A stretch of 61,019 nt of DNA from NCBI GenBank assembly GCA_049600935.1, contig JBMYQB010000006.1, forward strand, positions 1 through 61,019, given 5' to 3'. The translations under genes and the position numbers were made by a program. Below are positions 50,430-56,606 of this stretch, in pieces (within the stretch, counting starts at the first letter, position 1; each line of letters begins with the position of its first letter). Origin of the DNA: Poseidonia sp. Its GTDB lineage: Archaea; Thermoplasmatota; Poseidoniia; Poseidoniales; Poseidoniaceae. The notes beneath the pieces are model-generated. The model was not told the origin of the DNA. It ran no database searches and saw nothing but the letters and a program-made list of their open reading frames with translations.

Positions 50430-52133
50430 TTGATGAATGACGAAAACAACCGTCCAACCTCACCTTCCATCACATTGAAGAGACGGGTTCAATTCGCCAA
50501 AACCATGACTCATGTTCTTGAAACGGGCTTGGAATACATGCAAATTGACAATCCCACGGGCAAACCAGCCGTGCGTGGCTACAACATCATCAACGGGCAA
50601 TTGACCGGCGCAAGCGACGGCGGCACCTTCCGTTCCACCAATCCTGCTCACCTGGCCGACTGCCTGGGTGAATTTCCGCTCTCAACCCGTGACGATGTAC
50701 GAGAAGCACTTCACGCCGCTCACGCTGCCTTCCCAGCATGGGCCGCCACGCCCGCCCCAACCCGTGGTCAAATCATTGGCAACATGGGCCGTCTCTTGAT
50801 GGAACACAAGGATGCCCTCGTGGCCCTCGAAACCAGGGAAATTGGCAAGACGCTCAAGGAATCCGGCGGAGAAATTCAGGAAGCCATTGACACCTGTCTG
50901 TTCTTCCAGTCCGAGGGGCGCCGTCTCTACGGACAGACCGTGAACTCCGAATTGCCGGATAAAGAACTCTTCACCTACCGACGCCCGCTCGGGGTTTGCG
51001 GCATCATCAACGCCTGCAACTTCCCGTCAGCCGTTCCATTTTGGAAGATGATCCCCGCCATCATGTGCGGCAACACCTGCGTGTGGAAGAGTCCACAAGA
51101 CGCCCCGCTCCTCTCGTTTGCACTGGCCCGCATCATGCACGAAGCAGGGCTACCGGACGGTGTTATCAACCTCGTTCACGGCAAGGGAAGCGGCGCAGGC
51201 CAGTACCTCGTTGACGCCGTCGATGAGGGACTCGTCAACAAAATCTCCTTCACCGGTTCGACCGGTGTTGGCAAGATGATCGGCGAAGTATGTGGACGTA
51301 ACCTCGTCTCCTGTTCGCTTGAATTGGGCGGAAAGAACCCGCTGGTCGTCATGCCCTCGGCCGACATCAACAACGCCGTGGAAGGCGCCTATTGGGGGGC
51401 CTTTGGTACGGCTGGACAACGTTGCACCAGCCTTGGCAACCTCATCGTCCACGAAAGCATCTACGACGAATTCATGGAGAAATTCATGGCCAAGGTCAAG
51501 TCAACACGCATCGGCAACTCGCTGGTTCACAAGGACGTGCTCTACGGACCCATGCTTTCCGAAAAGTACGCTGAGGATTTCCTCAAAGGACTCGAGATGG
51601 CCAAATCCAGCGGCGCCACCCAGATTTGGGGAGAAGGCCCCATCACCGCTGAGAGTGCCCCTGAGAACTTCATGGGCGATGCCTCGGAAGGCGTGTTCAT
51701 GTGGCCCCACGTCTTTGTCGATGTCACCGAGGACATGGAATGCTTCCACGAGGAAATTTTCGGCCCGGTGGTCACCGTGGTGAAGGCGAAGGATTTCGAC
51801 CACGCACTCCACCTCGCCAACGCCAGCCCCTACGGACTTTCTTCGGCCATTTACACCAACGACCGTCTTGAAGCCTATCGCTACAAGACCGGCATCAAGG
51901 CCGGCATGACGGGCATCAACAACTCCACCACCGGTGCTGAGGCTCACCTGCCGTTTGGTGGTGTGAAGGGCTCAGGAAACGGAACCCGTGAATCCGGTAT
52001 TTGGGTCATTGAAGCCTACTCCTACTGGCACGCCGTCAACGACGAACTGTCGGGCAAACTCCAGCTCGCTCAGATGGACGTCGATGAAATCGAAATGGTC
52101 GAGGCCGAGGTCAATTGGTCGGAATTGGCTTGA
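50430..52133 (+). CDS. NAD(P)-dependent aldehyde dehydrogenase (substrate unresolved)
   Basis: NFPSAVPFWK, WKS, FTGSTGVG, LELGGKNP (Glu), GQRCT (Cys), EEIFGPV, YGLSS, PFGGVKGSG. ATATAA at about 50409; true start uncertain. Confidence 0.93.
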   Translation: MMNDENNRPTSPSITLKRRVQFAKTMTHVLETGLEYMQIDNPTGKPAVRGYNIINGQLTGASDGGTFRSTNPAHLADCLGEFPLSTRDDVREALHAAHAAFPAWAATPAPTRGQIIGNMGRLLMEHKDALVALETREIGKTLKESGGEIQEAIDTCLFFQSEGRRLYGQTVNSELPDKELFTYRRPLGVCGIINACNFPSAVPFWKMIPAIMCGNTCVWKSPQDAPLLSFALARIMHEAGLPDGVINLVHGKGSGAGQYLVDAVDEGLVNKISFTGSTGVGKMIGEVCGRNLVSCSLELGGKNPLVVMPSADINNAVEGAYWGAFGTAGQRCTSLGNLIVHESIYDEFMEKFMAKVKSTRIGNSLVHKDVLYGPMLSEKYAEDFLKGLEMAKSSGATQIWGEGPITAESAPENFMGDASEGVFMWPHVFVDVTEDMECFHEEIFGPVVTVVKAKDFDHALHLANASPYGLSSAIYTNDRLEAYRYKTGIKAGMTGINNSTTGAEAHLPFGGVKGSGNGTRESGIWVIEAYSYWHAVNDELSGKLQLAQMDVDEIEMVEAEVNWSELA

Positions 52134-52228
52134 ATTTCTTTCATAAACGGCATGCGGCTCAATGGTGAACCTCAAAGACCCTGCGCTGCTGGAGTGGATT
52201 GTTCCCGTAGGGAACAGGGGGACTTTGA

Positions 52229-53047
52229 ATGGGTGAAGGCATCAAACTCCCGGTCCTGAACGGACTGGGGCGCACCAATCGAATCGATAATTGGTGGAGC
52301 CAACCATTGGCCATGGGTGTCGGCCTCACCGCCGCTCTCATCTACACCTTTTGGCGACTGTTTCTCTATGACGCTGACATTTCCTATGCCCTGCACGGCA
52401 GTACGGTCATGTCGCCCATCTTCTCGCCTAACGTCCTCGAATGGAGTCTGTTTGGCCTGAACGAATGGAACCATCCCGAATGGGTCAACGCCGCCATCCT
52501 TGTTCTCTGGATTCCCTTTGGCTTCCGTGGAACCTGCTACTACATGCGACGCGTCTACTACCGCACGTTCTTCGCCAGCCCTACCGCTTGTTGGGTGGAC
52601 GAACCTGACATCAACAAAGCGATCGGCTACAAAGGCGAGAAGCGCTTGTTCATCTTCAACAACTTGCACCGCTACTTCCTCTACGCCGCCATGATCATTC
52701 TCGTCATCAAGTGGTGGGACGTCACCCACACCATGCATTTCCACTCCGCAAGCTACGACGGCTACGGCGTTTCCATCGGAACCTTCGTGATGGGGATTGA
52801 AGCCTTCCTGCTCACGATGTACGTCACGTCCTGCCACGCCCTGCGGCACCTCGCCGGAGGCATGCTGGACCGCTGGACCACCGGTATCAGTCGAGTCCGA
52901 GGCGTGCTGTTTGGCAAGATCAGCATCCTCAACCGTTCTCACGGGTTTTGGTTCTGGACCTCGTTGATTTTCGTATTCCTTGGCGACCTTTGGGTGCTGG
53001 CCGTGGCCGATGGCCGCTTGAGCGACATGGTGCTCTTCGTGGTGTGA
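52229..53047 (+). CDS. sdhC: Succinate dehydrogenase membrane anchor, mycobacterial Sdh1 (Rv0249c-like) type
   Basis: PFGFRGTCYYMRRVYYR, NNLHRYFLY, TSCHALRH, NRSHGFWFW. First gene of the sdh operon. Confidence 0.8.
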   Translation: MGEGIKLPVLNGLGRTNRIDNWWSQPLAMGVGLTAALIYTFWRLFLYDADISYALHGSTVMSPIFSPNVLEWSLFGLNEWNHPEWVNAAILVLWIPFGFRGTCYYMRRVYYRTFFASPTACWVDEPDINKAIGYKGEKRLFIFNNLHRYFLYAAMIILVIKWWDVTHTMHFHSASYDGYGVSIGTFVMGIEAFLLTMYVTSCHALRHLAGGMLDRWTTGISRVRGVLFGKISILNRSHGFWFWTSLIFVFLGDLWVLAVADGRLSDMVLFVV

Positions 53048-53056
53048 GGTGAGACG

Positions 53057-54910
53057 ATGAGTGAACACATTACGAAACATGAATACGATGTCATCGTCAT
53101 CGGCGCAGGTGGAGCAGGTCTCCGCGCCGCCATTGAAGCGGCTCGAAGCGGCGCCAAGACCGCCATCATCACCAAGTCCCTGCTCGGAAAAGCACACACC
53201 GTCATGGCCGAGGGTGGATGCGCTGCTGCGCTCCAAAACGCCGACCCTCGAGACGGTTGGAAAGTGCACTTCCACGACACGATGAAAGGCAGCAAGTGGC
53301 TTGCCAACTGGCGCATGGCAGAATTCCACGCTAAAGAAGCCCCGGACCGTGTTCGAGAGCTCGAACAGTGGGGCGCTGTGTTTGACCGCACGCCAAAGAA
53401 CCTCATCAATCAGCGAAACTTTGGCGGCCACACCTTCCCTCGCCTCGCTCACGTCGGCGACGCTACGGGCCTGGAAATCATTCGAACCCTGCAAGAACGG
53501 GGCATCCACGAAGGCATTGACATTTTCATGGAATACACCGTTCGAAGCCTCCTGAAAGAAGGCGACCGTGTCACGGGTTGCGTCGCCTACACCCGTGTTG
53601 ACGGTGAATTCCACGCCTTCTCCGCCAAATCCGTCGTCCTTGCGACCGGCGGCATCACGCGTTGCTGGTCGGTGTGCTCGGGCTCCTGGGAATACACCGG
53701 CGACGGTCATGCCCTTGCCCTGTGGGCTGGCGCAGAACTTCGCGACATGGAATTCGTTCAATTCCACCCTACCGGCATGGTGTGGCCACCGTCCGTTCGC
53801 GGCATCCTGGTCACCGAAGGCGTGCGTGGTGAAGGTGGGCGCTTAACCAACAGCGAAGGCAGCCGATTCATGTTCGATTACGTGCCGGAGATGTTCGCAG
53901 GCGACCACGCCGACACCATCGAAGAAGCCGACCAGTGGGTCGAAGAAGTGGTGAGCGGGAAACTCGCCACCGTTCGCCGACCGCCAGAATTGCTCACCCG
54001 AGACGTGGTGGCCAAGGCGATCAACGAAGAGGTCAAAGCCGGTCGTGGCTCCCCCCACGGCGGTGCCTTCCTCGATATTTCTCATCGCGGTGAGGAAGCC
54101 ATCATGAAGAAACTGCCCTCCATGCACCACCAGTTCAAGGAACTTGCAGGCGTCGACATCAGCAAAGAACCGATGGAAGTCGGTCCTACGGCCCACTACG
54201 TGATGGGCGGTGTTGTCGTCGATGCTGAATCCCAAGAGACCACGGTTCCCGGATTGTTCGCTTGCGGCGAGGTGGCCTCTGGCCTGCACGGCGCAAACCG
54301 ATTAGGCGGAAACTCCCTCTCCGACCTCATCGTGTTTGGTAAGCGGGCGGGTGAATTTGCCGCCAACCGTGCTCAGGACCTCGCTCAGCCATCGATTGAC
54401 GACGCTCAGGTGGAGCAAGCCATCAGCGACATGCTCGCACCGCTTCAGCGAGAAGGTGGCGAAAACCCCGGCCGAATCTACGACGAAATGCGAGACATGA
54501 TGCAAGCCAAGGTCGGCATCATTCGAACCAAAGCCGAACTTGAAGAAGCGCTTGACGACATCAAGTCGTTCAAGGAACGAGCCTTGGCCTGTTCGTCGGG
54601 TACATCACGCAAGTACAATTCCGGTTGGCACCAAGCCCTCGACCTCCTGAACATGGCCGATGTGTCCCATGCCGCCACGCTGGCCGCCATCACGCGAGAG
54701 GAAAGCCGTGGCGGCCACACGAGGGACGATTTTCCCACACCCGAAGACGACTATTGGGGCAAGACCATCAACATCATTTGGATGAAAGACGGTGAAATGA
54801 ACATTCGACAGGAACCGGTTGAGGAAATCCGCGACGACCTCAAAGACGCCCTCAAGGAAGTGAAGGCGATGATCGCTGACCGCGCAGCAGAAGCAGGAGG
54901 TGGAAACTGA
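53057..54910 (+). CDS. sdhA: Succinate dehydrogenase/fumarate reductase flavoprotein (Rv0248c-like)
   Basis: GAGGAG, KAHTVMAEGG (covalent FAD His), QRNFGGH, QFHPTG, TEGVRGEGG, HYVMGG, LHGANRLGGNSL, ESRGGH. Confidence 0.96.
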   Translation: MSEHITKHEYDVIVIGAGGAGLRAAIEAARSGAKTAIITKSLLGKAHTVMAEGGCAAALQNADPRDGWKVHFHDTMKGSKWLANWRMAEFHAKEAPDRVRELEQWGAVFDRTPKNLINQRNFGGHTFPRLAHVGDATGLEIIRTLQERGIHEGIDIFMEYTVRSLLKEGDRVTGCVAYTRVDGEFHAFSAKSVVLATGGITRCWSVCSGSWEYTGDGHALALWAGAELRDMEFVQFHPTGMVWPPSVRGILVTEGVRGEGGRLTNSEGSRFMFDYVPEMFAGDHADTIEEADQWVEEVVSGKLATVRRPPELLTRDVVAKAINEEVKAGRGSPHGGAFLDISHRGEEAIMKKLPSMHHQFKELAGVDISKEPMEVGPTAHYVMGGVVVDAESQETTVPGLFACGEVASGLHGANRLGGNSLSDLIVFGKRAGEFAANRAQDLAQPSIDDAQVEQAISDMLAPLQREGGENPGRIYDEMRDMMQAKVGIIRTKAELEEALDDIKSFKERALACSSGTSRKYNSGWHQALDLLNMADVSHAATLAAITREESRGGHTRDDFPTPEDDYWGKTINIIWMKDGEMNIRQEPVEEIRDDLKDALKEVKAMIADRAAEAGGGN

Positions 54911-55677
54911 TGTCCCTCAAAGGTACCAAACAATCGTTCAACATTCTACGAGGCGAAGGCGACGAAGCCAAACTTCAACCCTACGAACTGGAACTCGACG
55001 AGGGCATGGTGGTGCTCGATTGTCTCCATCGAATCCAACACGACCAAGAGCCAGACATGGCCGTCCGCTGGAACTGCAAAGCCGGCAAGTGCGGCTCATG
55101 CTCTGCAGAAATTAACGGACGGCCCCGCCTGATGTGCATGACACGAATGAGCGACGTTGTCGCAGAAACACCAGCTGGCCAACCCATCGAAATCCGCCCA
55201 ATGAAGACCTTCCCTCACGTGAAGGACCTCGTCACCGACGTGAGCTGGAACTACGATGTGGCCCAGCGGATTGCCCCCATCAACGGCCCGGAGAGCATGG
55301 ATTGGGAATTCAATCAGATGGAAGCCGACCGCGTGCAACACTTCCGTGAGTGCATTGAATGCTTCCTGTGCGTCAACACCTGCCACGTCCTGCGAGACCA
55401 CGAGCTCTTCGATGACTTTGCAGGACCGCGAAACCTTGTTCGCTTGGCTCAGTACGAAATGCACCCGCTCGACACCGAGGACCGTGTTCCTGAAATCAAG
55501 AAGGAGTTCGGTGTTGAATACTGCAACATCACCCGATGCTGCACCGAGGTCTGCCCTGCCGGCATCGAAATCACCGACGATGCCATCATCCAACTCAAGG
55601 AACGTGTGGTTGACCGGTATTATGACCCGCTGCAGCGCATTTGGCGAACCCTCACCCGTCAGAAGGTTCGCTACTGA
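54910..55677 (+). CDS. sdhB: Succinate dehydrogenase iron-sulfur subunit (Rv0247c-like)
   Basis: NCKAGKCGSC...LMC, CIECFLCVNTC, CNITRCCTEVC. Confidence 0.95.
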   Translation: MSLKGTKQSFNILRGEGDEAKLQPYELELDEGMVVLDCLHRIQHDQEPDMAVRWNCKAGKCGSCSAEINGRPRLMCMTRMSDVVAETPAGQPIEIRPMKTFPHVKDLVTDVSWNYDVAQRIAPINGPESMDWEFNQMEADRVQHFRECIECFLCVNTCHVLRDHELFDDFAGPRNLVRLAQYEMHPLDTEDRVPEIKKEFGVEYCNITRCCTEVCPAGIEITDDAIIQLKERVVDRYYDPLQRIWRTLTRQKVRY

Positions 55678-55706: not shown

Positions 55707-56606
55707 TCATCTTCGAGCGATGAGCCAATCCCGAATCCACTGCTCGCCGATGCCATCGTAGTCCACGTTGGGTGGTGGAAGCGGTCGAACGATGACCAGA
55801 ATGTCCAACTGGCCGCCCCACGAGGCTCTAGCAACCATGGAGACCTCACCGACCTTCGTCCCTTGCGGGTCGGAACCAAACGCCGTGGTGTTGATGTCGT
55901 AGGCTCTGTACACCACGGTCTCAACGTCGCCAGAGTCCCAACTGCCGATGATGATGTCGAGGGTGGACGGTGCCAGAACGGGTTTCAGGGTGATCTCTTC
56001 GGGGTTGAGGCGAACGAAAGGCACCTCCTCGTCAATCAACTCAATCGCTTGATGGAGTCGACCCGTTTCCATGTTCATCAGCGAGGCCAAGGTCAGCGCC
56101 ACCGTCTCAGCCCCCATGACGCCTGGTTGGTGCGGAAGGCGCAGGGTGAGGGACTGCAGCACCACCACGTCCGTGGTGACCCATGTGTATTGCTCGCTGG
56201 CGGGATACATCGATGCATGCGGGTTTTCGGTGAACAAGGGCTGGCCCCAGTCATCGGGTGCGACGGGTTGGGAAACTGGAAGAAAACCGGTCGCTCCCAT
56301 GCAAAGAACGGCAACACTCAGCGCCACCAATCGAGGCGTTCGCTCCTCGGACCATTCCTGGCGCCCTGCTGGACTGAGAACAGAGAGTAGCAACAGCAGA
56401 GGGAGGGTCAACAGCGCGCCCGCTGGGACAATCCAGATGAGGGCAGCGAAGGCAAAGGCCATCCGCACCCCGTTGCTCCCAATGGCGCCTGTCCAGTGGC
56501 CTTCCTCTGATTCGTTGGTTCGCCGGTGGTAGATGTAGAGCGCAAACCCACCCCCAACAAGCGGCGCCAAGGACTGAACCACGCCCTGCCACATCGTCGA
56601 TACCAA
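55707..56606 (-). CDS. Hypothetical membrane protein (about 3-4 TM plus soluble domain)
   Basis: 299-aa ORF with hydrophobic N-terminal third, divergent from the ABC genes. Confidence 0.65.
   Translation of the reverse strand: MVSTMWQGVVQSLAPLVGGGFALYIYHRRTNESEEGHWTGAIGSNGVRMAFAFAALIWIVPAGALLTLPLLLLLSVLSPAGRQEWSEERTPRLVALSVAVLCMGATGFLPVSQPVAPDDWGQPLFTENPHASMYPASEQYTWVTTDVVVLQSLTLRLPHQPGVMGAETVALTLASLMNMETGRLHQAIELIDEEVPFVRLNPEEITLKPVLAPSTLDIIIGSWDSGDVETVVYRAYDINTTAFGSDPQGTKVGEVSMVARASWGGQLDILVIVRPLPPPNVDYDGIGEQWIRDWLIARR

What the first reader, a model, noticed from the sequence alone, without database searches (positions are those of the whole stretch)
52229..55677. Mycobacterial Sdh1-like (type F) succinate dehydrogenase in an archaeon, with candidate membrane Rieske ligands
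Seen: a single 272-aa anchor with C103 (GTCYY), H147 (LHRY), C202/H203/H207 (SCHALRH) and H238 (RSHG). No SdhD and no Cys-rich CCG anchor. SdhA and SdhB motifs (KAHTVMAEGG, SWEYTGDG, WNCKAGKCGSCSAEING) match my recollection of Rv0248c and Rv0247c. Established: M. smegmatis Sdh1 is heme-less, with a membrane-embedded Rieske-type [2Fe-2S] ligated by 2 Cys and 2 His. Inference: the same architecture here, acquired horizontally. The second Cys of the mycobacterial SCHSCRH motif is replaced (SCHALRH).
Basis: partly seen in the sequence, partly recalled or inferred. Interest (0 to 1): 0.62.

Follow-up and report, generated by a model that had tools for sequence, protein, structure and literature searches.

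The report
Heme-free succinate dehydrogenase of marine archaea
These three genes of a Marine Group II (Poseidoniales) archaeon encode a succinate dehydrogenase of the 'type F' kind first solved in Mycobacterium, whose single membrane anchor most likely holds an iron-sulfur cluster instead of heme; this is the normal, inherited enzyme of the whole archaeal group, not a recent import.

Summary
The window holds sdhC (52229-53047, 272 aa), sdhA (53057-54910, 617 aa) and sdhB (54910-55677, 255 aa), with every quoted motif at the stated residue. All three proteins have M. smegmatis Sdh1 (PDB 7D6V) as their best solved relative by far (E 7e-36, 1e-209, 9e-86). An AlphaFold model of the anchor matches only 7D6V chain C (TM 0.78-0.80). 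The two published histidine ligands of the membrane Rieske-type cluster (His155, His240) align to H147 and H238. The anchor has only three cysteines (C103, C121, C202), and all are invariant across the family. The 'missing' second Cys of SCHSCRH lies in a variable column, so it is very unlikely to be a ligand.

The horizontal-transfer inference is not supported as a recent event. The anchor occurs in 104 of 105 sampled genomes of the class, in 46 of 296 other Thermoplasmatota, in a marine Halobacteriales lineage and in many bacterial phyla. In an SdhA+SdhB tree the window's enzyme sits inside an all-archaeal clade, and mycobacterial Sdh1 sits inside an all-bacterial one. It is the genome's only complex II, and the genome carries futalosine-pathway (menaquinone) genes.

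Verdict: a real, ordinary member of a known enzyme class, under-described in the Marine Group II literature.

The parts
52229..53047 (+). sdhC: single 272-aa membrane anchor of type F complex II. Candidate Rieske-type [2Fe-2S] ligands are C103, C202 (or C121), H147 and H238. H203 and H207 are also conserved.
   Evidence: phmmer against PDB finds only 7d6v_C (E 7.1e-36), and the family profile gives E 1.4e-88. The AF2 model has pLDDT 89.2 and pTM 0.84. Foldseek gives 7d6v_C at E 1.1e-13 and TM 0.78/0.80, with nothing else significant.
53057..54910 (+). sdhA: flavoprotein subunit (617 aa). It carries the covalent-FAD histidine motif KAHTVMAEGG (H47) and the catalytic motifs QFHPTG, TEGVRGEGG, HYVMGG and GANRLGGNS.
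   Evidence: NF005866 scores 903 bits against a cut-off of 819. 7d6v_A gives E 1.1e-209 and 56% identity; the next PDB hits are near 1e-109.
54910..55677 (+). sdhB: iron-sulfur subunit (255 aa). It has the ligand motifs for [2Fe-2S] (C56, C61, C64, C76), [4Fe-4S] and [3Fe-4S] (CIECFLCVNTC 148-158; CNITRCCTEVCP 205-216). Y238 is equivalent to the quinone-site Tyr-B236 of M. smegmatis.
   Evidence: NF009052 scores 349 bits against a cut-off of 256. 7d6v_B gives E 8.7e-86 and 54% identity; the next PDB hit is 4e-24.
52134..52228 (+). 95-nt intergenic leader upstream of sdhC, with an A/T-rich TTTCATAAA element (52139-52147) and a G-rich stretch (GGGGGA, 52217-52222) just before the ATG. Candidate archaeal promoter and ribosome-binding site.
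   Evidence: Read directly from the sequence.

Best explanation
The three genes form one sdhC-sdhA-sdhB operon. It encodes the cell's only respiratory complex II, a succinate:quinone oxidoreductase of type F, the class defined by M. smegmatis Sdh1. Shown by homology: succinate is oxidised at a covalently bound FAD in SdhA, and electrons pass through the [2Fe-2S], [4Fe-4S] and [3Fe-4S] clusters of SdhB. Inferred from conserved ligands and fold: electrons then reach a Rieske-type [2Fe-2S] cluster buried at the cytoplasmic face of the single anchor SdhC. This cluster takes the place that heme b occupies in other complex II types. It would be held by H147 and H238 and by two of the three invariant cysteines, most likely C103 and C202, which sit at helix breaks. 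Inferred: the acceptor is a quinone bound near H147 and SdhB Y238, probably menaquinone made by the futalosine pathway. The operon is the vertically inherited standard enzyme of Poseidoniales (Marine Group II) and of much of Thermoplasmatota. It belongs to a very large family shared with many bacterial phyla, and it was not recently taken from mycobacteria.
For: Homology to 7D6V chains C, A and B: E 7e-36, 1e-209 and 9e-86, with 35%, 56% and 54% identity. Curated equivalogs NF005866 and NF009052 are passed, and NF005866 is passed in 0 of 14 control genomes. The fold matches 7d6v_C only, TM 0.78-0.80. His-C155 and His-C240 are the published ligands, and their double Ala mutant is inactive (PMC8054011); they align to H147 and H238. 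C103, C121, H147 and C202 are invariant, and H203, H207 and H238 are at least 90% conserved, in 70 full-length sequences down to 30% identity. The anchor has only these three Cys. SdhA and SdhB cofactor motifs are intact. It is the only complex II: there is no other true SdhB and no Sdh_cyt, and the second flavoprotein looks like NadB with no SdhB next to it. Quinone: an MqnE/MqnC-like radical-SAM gene lies next to two VitK2_biosynth (MqnA/MqnD) genes at G000:C11:16396-19356, and no MenA or MenB passes its cut-off. Distribution: 59/59 genomes of the family, 35/36 of the sister family, 10/10 of the rest of the class and 46/296 of the rest of the phylum, with adjacent sdhA and sdhB in all 14 loci checked. 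Tree: the window plus MGIIb are sisters (100/100) inside an archaeal clade (96/93), and M. smegmatis lies in a bacterial clade (100/99).
Against: No cofactor was observed; everything about the membrane cluster is inferred from a 35%-identical homologue. The source paper's main text does not name the two Cys ligands. With three invariant Cys, the ligand pair is not settled. H238 is replaced in a few family members (Gln in P0067). Menaquinone is inferred from three genes only, and the MqnE-like protein scores just below its cut-off (412.6 against 434.55). The genome is 85% complete, so a second complex II on missing DNA cannot be excluded. No transcript evidence was obtained.
Confidence: 0.85

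Rival explanations
1. One reading: the operon was acquired horizontally by this archaeon, or its recent ancestors, from a mycobacterium-like actinobacterial donor.
For: The only characterised members are mycobacterial. SdhA and SdhB are 54-56% identical to M. smegmatis Sdh1. The family spans both domains, and a single archaea/bacteria split is rejected (AU p 1e-4 to 5e-4), so transfers between domains did happen at some time.
Against: Operon GC (0.57-0.58) matches the window. The operon is present in 104/105 sampled genomes of the class and is widespread in the phylum. The window's sequence lies in an all-archaeal clade (96/93), and M. smegmatis lies in a separate all-bacterial clade (100/99). 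Identity to Acidobacteria, Chloroflexota and other Thermoplasmatota (58-63%) is as high as or higher than to Mycobacterium (56%).
Confidence: 0.03
2. Same fold, different cofactor: the archaeal anchor binds no Fe-S cluster, or binds heme b through conserved histidines such as H203 and H207, and electrons go directly from [3Fe-4S] to quinone.
For: No cofactor was observed. Four His are conserved although only two are needed as cluster ligands. The Zhou et al. paper itself notes that [3Fe-4S] could in principle reduce quinone directly.
Against: Both published His ligands and all three Cys are conserved across sequences down to 30% identity in both domains, which argues for a conserved metal site. 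The solved homologue has no heme. The anchor matches no heme-anchor family.
Confidence: 0.07
3. Same enzyme, opposite physiological direction: it works mainly as a menaquinol:fumarate reductase.
For: The direction of complex II cannot be read from sequence (PMC4145680). The likely quinone is low-potential menaquinone, which favours fumarate reduction thermodynamically.
Against: It is the only complex II of an organism described as an aerobic heterotroph with cytochrome c oxidase (PMC6336850). Mycobacterial Sdh1 works as the aerobic succinate dehydrogenase (PMC8054011; PMC4145680). In bacteria the family's operons sit beside TCA-cycle genes.
Confidence: 0.08

Closest known systems
Mycobacterium smegmatis Sdh1 (PDB 7D6V/7D6X; M. 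tuberculosis Rv0249c-Rv0247c), type F complex II
   Same: Three genes in the order anchor-flavoprotein-FeS protein. All three subunits are homologous (35%, 56% and 54% identity). The anchor has the same unique fold (TM 0.78-0.80). The His ligands of the membrane Rieske-type [2Fe-2S] are conserved (H155/H240 = H147/H238). The Cys equivalent to C114, C132 and C206 are conserved, as are the quinone-site Tyr-B236 (= Y238) and the CNIT(K/R)CCTEVCP motif of SdhB.
   Different: The host is archaeal. It is the sole complex II of the genome, whereas mycobacteria also have Sdh2 and sometimes Frd. The second Cys of SCHSCRH is Leu, in a column that varies across the family. The outer-face loop lacks the mycobacterial CVSTAC pair of cysteines. 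The sequence belongs to a separate, archaeal clade of the family. Menaquinone here would come from the futalosine pathway.
Type F operons of other Thermoplasmatota, of the marine Halobacteriales 'Candidatus Hikarchaeum yamanae' and of bacteria (Acidobacteria, Chloroflexota, Methylomirabilia, Acidimicrobiales, Vampirovibrionales)
   Same: The same three-gene cluster and the same invariant Cys/His set. Several members are already named 'succinate dehydrogenase' in NCBI records.
   Different: One family of small Thermoplasmatota genomes (f34) has the order sdhA-sdhB-sdhC, a shorter anchor and a 59-aa two-helix ORF after sdhC. The window's operon has neither feature.
Heme-b anchored complex II (types A-D; Sdh_cyt PF01127), the usual 'canonical' form, found for example in Haloferax volcanii
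   Same: The SdhA and SdhB chemistry and cofactor motifs.
   Different: The anchor is unrelated in sequence and fold, and there is no Sdh_cyt match in the operon or the genome. The Marine Group II literature nevertheless calls the enzyme 'canonical' (PMC6336850).
Type E complex II (Sulfolobus-type, CCG-domain SdhE/SdhF)
   Same: It is another heme-free archaeal solution with an extra Fe-S centre in the anchor module.
   Different: The type E anchor is an amphipathic CCG-domain protein (PF02754). The window's anchor is an integral membrane protein of about five helices with no CCG match. A bacterial contig carries a type E and a type F operon side by side as clearly distinct systems (L121).

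Membership tests
Type F complex II (Sdh1-type succinate:quinone oxidoreductase) | A single integral-membrane anchor homologous to M. smegmatis SdhC (7D6V chain C) | tested here: met
   phmmer E 7.1e-36 over residues 15-267. Family profile E 1.4e-88, the only PDB hit. Foldseek E 1.1e-13, TM 0.78/0.80, the only significant hit.
Type F complex II (Sdh1-type succinate:quinone oxidoreductase) | The two histidine ligands of the membrane Rieske-type [2Fe-2S] (His-C155, His-C240) | tested here: met
   They align to H147 (NLHRY) and H238 (RSHG). The ligands are named in PMC8054011. H147 is invariant and H238 at least 90% conserved.
Type F complex II (Sdh1-type succinate:quinone oxidoreductase) | The two cysteine ligands of the same cluster | tested here: inconclusive
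   C103, C121 and C202 (M. smegmatis C114, C132, C206) are the anchor's only Cys, and all are invariant, so two ligands are available. Which two is not named in the accessible text, and geometry could not be measured. M. smegmatis C209 (window L205) lies in a variable column.
Type F complex II (Sdh1-type succinate:quinone oxidoreductase) | SdhA and SdhB of the Sdh1 subfamily | tested here: met
   NF005866 scores 903.2 bits (cut-off 819) and NF009052 scores 348.6 bits (cut-off 256). NF005866 is over its cut-off in 0 of 14 control genomes. The best PDB hits are 7d6v_A and 7d6v_B by about 100 and 60 orders of magnitude.
Type F complex II (Sdh1-type succinate:quinone oxidoreductase) | A three-gene operon, anchor-sdhA-sdhB, with no second anchor subunit | tested here: met
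   The same order is seen in bacterial and most archaeal members.
Type F complex II (Sdh1-type succinate:quinone oxidoreductase) | The physical presence of a fourth Fe-S cluster in the membrane domain and the absence of heme b | not testable with these tools
   This needs EPR, heme assay or a structure of the archaeal enzyme.
Heme-b anchored complex II (types A-D) | An anchor subunit or subunits of the Sdh_cyt / di-heme cytochrome b kind | tested here: not met
   The anchor has no Pfam hit, and PF01127 has no match in the whole genome.
Type E complex II | A CCG-domain (PF02754) anchor protein encoded with sdhA and sdhB | tested here: not met
   The anchor has no CCG match, and the operon has no further ORF. 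CCG proteins elsewhere in the genome were not searched for.

The most novel reading that the evidence does not exclude
The transfer went the other way, or is far older than assumed. In this reading the type F anchor was fixed early in Thermoplasmatota, and bacterial Sdh1, mycobacterial included, descends from one or more archaeal donors. A heme-free, Rieske-cluster complex II working with futalosine-derived menaquinone would then be the ancestral and main route of succinate oxidation in the ocean's most abundant planktonic euryarchaea, and those archaea would be a natural system for the unsolved problem of how type F enzymes drive the uphill succinate-to-menaquinone reaction without a di-heme, proton-motive-force-coupled anchor.
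Probability: 0.15. Interest if true: 0.5.

Novelty: new member of a known kind. Interest (0 to 1): 0.3.

Why it matters
Marine Group II archaea are among the most abundant microbes of the surface ocean, and none has been cultured. Genome papers list their complex II as 'canonical' (PMC6336850). This analysis indicates that their only complex II belongs to the type F class, which has been studied only in mycobacteria, where it is of interest as a drug target. That corrects the picture of their respiratory chain. It also shows that type F is a large, cross-domain family (at least 8000 protein clusters) and not a mycobacterial curiosity. Finally, it provides hundreds of natural sequence variants that pin down the conserved metal-site residues: three Cys and four His. 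It does not reveal a new kind of system.

Tried and rejected
1. I looked for the names of the two Cys ligands in Zhou et al. 2021. The main text and legends do not give them, and no supplement is held. A further literature search found nothing.
2. I hoped to measure ligand geometry on the AF2 model, but the tool gives no coordinates.
It was redone with A2.
4. The genome-contig scan returned only close Poseidoniales relatives, so bacterial members had to be reached through the representative search, a profile search and contig look-ups.
5. The SdhC-only tree was too weakly resolved at depth to use for transfer questions.
6. Rooting with a type E outgroup gave a branch of length 10 and an unresolved backbone, so I make no claim about direction.
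7. I considered a second complex II in the genome and rejected it. The C24 flavoprotein looks like NadB and has no SdhB next to it. The C41 Fer2_3 hit is a ferredoxin-flavodoxin fusion that lacks the cluster Cys. The C28 hit looks like a 2Fe-2S subunit of another oxidoreductase type.
8. It is present in L101 but has no room and no homologue here.
9. The classical menaquinone genes MenA and MenB are absent or below cut-off.
11. Karavaeva & Sousa 2023, the large survey of complex II types, is not held, so I could not check whether it already lists archaeal type F.
Full report
WHAT IS THERE. The window carries three tightly packed genes on the + strand: 52229-53047 (272 aa), 53057-54910 (617 aa) and 54910-55677 (255 aa). 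The first two are 9 nt apart, and the stop of the second overlaps the start of the third. No other ORF fits inside or directly after the cluster, and the next gene is convergent. The contig is 100% identical to a MAG record titled 'Candidatus Poseidoniales archaeon', and the nearest relatives are 'Poseidonia sp.', that is, Marine Group IIa. GC content of the operon (0.57-0.58) does not differ from the rest of the window.

WHAT IT IS. Pfam and NCBIfam identify the second and third proteins as SdhA and SdhB. SdhA and SdhB pass the curated cut-offs of the equivalogs NF005866 (903 bits; cut-off 819) and NF009052 (349 bits; cut-off 256). NF005866 is passed in none of 14 named control genomes, which include Haloferax, Sulfolobus and Corynebacterium. 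The 272-aa protein matches no curated family. Against all PDB sequences, each of the three proteins has M. smegmatis Sdh1 (7D6V/7D6X) as its best hit: anchor E 7e-36 (the only real hit), SdhA 1e-209 (next best about 1e-109) and SdhB 9e-86 (next best 4e-24). Identities are 35%, 56% and 54%. A profile of 70 family members finds only 7d6v_C (E 1.4e-88). An AlphaFold2 model of the anchor (pLDDT 89, pTM 0.84) has a single significant structural match in the PDB, 7d6v_C (E 1e-13, TM 0.78-0.80). This is a type F complex II.

THE METAL SITE. Zhou et al. 2021 (PMC8054011) describe a Rieske-type [2Fe-2S] cluster embedded in SdhC. It is held by two His and two Cys and occupies the place of heme b. They name His-C155 and His-C240, and the double Ala mutant is inactive. 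In the HMMER alignment these are the window's H147 (NLHRY) and H238 (RSHG). The Cys ligands are not named in the accessible text, so I used conservation.

In 70 full-length sequences, down to 30% identity and from both domains, C103, C121, H147 and C202 are invariant, and H203, H207 and H238 are at least 90% conserved. The window's anchor contains only these three cysteines. It is never Cys in the Poseidoniales sequences aligned, so it is very unlikely to be a ligand.

In the model, C103, C202 and H238 sit at helix breaks or helix starts, and H147 sits near the start of the third long helix. C103+C202 with H147+H238 is the most likely ligand set, and C121 is the alternative. This step is inference, because I could not measure geometry.

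THE SOLUBLE SUBUNITS are intact. SdhA has the covalent-FAD His motif (KAHTVMAEGG) and the motifs QFHPTG, TEGVRGEGG, HYVMGG and GANRLGGNS. SdhB has the Cys sets for [2Fe-2S], [4Fe-4S] and [3Fe-4S], including the Sdh1-typical CNITRCCTEVCP. Y238 is at the position of the quinone-site Tyr-B236.

GENOME CONTEXT. The assembly is 1.87 Mb and 85% complete. It has no Sdh_cyt-type anchor and no second true SdhB. The second strong FAD_binding_2 protein looks like L-aspartate oxidase and has no SdhB next to it. The operon is therefore the only complex II found.

For the quinone, the genome has an MqnE/MqnC-like radical-SAM gene followed by two VitK2_biosynth (MqnA/MqnD-type) genes at C11:16396-19356. No MenA or MenB passes its cut-off. 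Menaquinone made by the futalosine pathway is the likely acceptor (inference).

DISTRIBUTION AND HISTORY. I searched 401 genomes of the phylum with the anchor profile. It was found in 59/59 genomes of the window's family, 35/36 of the sister family, 10/10 of the rest of the class and 46/296 of the other classes, 48 of 161 genera in all. The sister family contains 'Ca. Thalassarchaeum betae', that is, MGIIb. In all 14 loci fetched from different families, sdhA and sdhB lie next to the anchor. All 50 full-length Poseidoniaceae loci keep the trio.

Outside the phylum, the family is in the marine Halobacteriales 'Ca. Hikarchaeum yamanae'. Among bacteria it appears in Vampirovibrionales, Acidobacteria, Methylomirabilia, Chloroflexota, Acidimicrobiales, Binatota and 'Deltaproteobacteria'. 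There are 973 clusters at 50% identity and at least 8000 clusters at 90% identity.

In a concatenated SdhA+SdhB tree, the window's enzyme is sister to MGIIb (100/100) inside an all-archaeal clade of nine (96/93). M. smegmatis Sdh1 lies inside an all-bacterial clade (100/99). A single archaea/bacteria split is rejected (AU p 1e-4 to 5e-4), so several ancient exchanges between domains took place. The backbone is unresolved and the only outgroup is too distant, so direction is open. Here the operon is old and vertically inherited.

MECHANISM (most likely). Succinate is oxidised at FAD. Electrons pass through the three SdhB clusters to the membrane [2Fe-2S], which acts as the second electron store in place of heme b, as proposed for M. 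smegmatis. Two electrons then reduce a quinone bound between the start of the third anchor helix (H147 region) and the SdhB C-terminus (Y238). Homology, fold and ligand conservation are shown. The cluster itself, the choice of Cys pair, the quinone and the direction of catalysis are inferred. If the quinone is menaquinone, the reaction is uphill by about 100 mV (PMC4145680). These archaea then share the unsolved energetic question of mycobacterial Sdh1.

KNOWN OR NEW. The enzyme class is known and solved. NCBI already names several archaeal members 'succinate dehydrogenase'. The Marine Group II papers I could read call complex II 'canonical' and do not mention the anchor type. My searches found no paper that links Sdh1 or type F with archaea. 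The one large survey of complex II types (Karavaeva & Sousa 2023) is not held and may already list this. Other readers in this scan have flagged the same architecture in at least 21 genomes. I rate it a new member of a known kind, of modest interest.

LIMITS. Two 'bacterial' tree rows are labelled from their neighbouring genes only.

Noticed in passing
window 50430-52133 (+): A 567-aa aldehyde dehydrogenase lies directly upstream of sdhC. Its best matches are 2,5-dioxovalerate, alpha-ketoglutarate-semialdehyde and succinate-semialdehyde dehydrogenases, all far below their cut-offs, so its product is probably a TCA-cycle acid. It keeps this position in 32 of 50 full-length Poseidoniaceae loci. 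The listed TTG start gives about 50 extra N-terminal residues and may be wrong.
   Followed up: partly
window 55707-56606 (-): A 299-aa predicted membrane protein, convergent on sdhB, has no Pfam or NCBIfam match. It is conserved in this position in 29 of 50 full-length loci.
   Followed up: partly
G000:C41:644-2620 (-), own genome, outside the window: A 659-aa open frame joins a ferredoxin-like N-terminus, a flavodoxin-like domain and an SdhB-N-terminal-like (Fer2_3) domain that has lost the cluster cysteines. It may be the gene that a Marine Group II paper annotates as 'sulfite reductase flavoprotein' or 'succinate dehydrogenase cytochrome b' near the rRNA operon (PMC6741140). Function unknown.
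   Followed up: no
L083 (G000:C29:15705-17378, -): A divergent 558-aa SdhA/FrdA/NadB-like flavoprotein (98 bits to FAD_binding_2) has no covalent-FAD His motif and no SdhB next to it.
   Followed up: no
L101:6312-6491 (+): In a family of small Thermoplasmatota genomes, the type F operon runs sdhA-sdhB-sdhC with a shorter anchor. It is followed by a 59-aa two-helix ORF that overlaps the sdhC stop. No homologue is found in the window's genome.
   Followed up: partly
L121:1248-6607: A contig labelled Deltaproteobacteria carries a type E operon (sdhA, sdhB, CCG-domain protein) immediately followed by a type F operon (anchor, sdhA).
   Followed up: no
L116:5001-10591: In a Vampirovibrionales MAG, the type F genes are interrupted by several small unannotated genes: 177 aa between sdhC and sdhA, and 166, 43, 136 and 131 aa between sdhA and sdhB.
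   Followed up: no
L007 (NZEQ01000032.1): A 10-kb contig filed under 'Verrucomicrobiales bacterium' encodes an anchor 97% identical to the window's. It is most likely a Poseidoniales contig placed in the wrong bin.
   Followed up: no
G029 (C5:12573-13298, C50:84061-84813, C101:17142-17873): One 3.1-Mb Thermoplasmatota genome from another class holds three copies of the type F anchor. One copy has an in-frame TGA.
   Followed up: no
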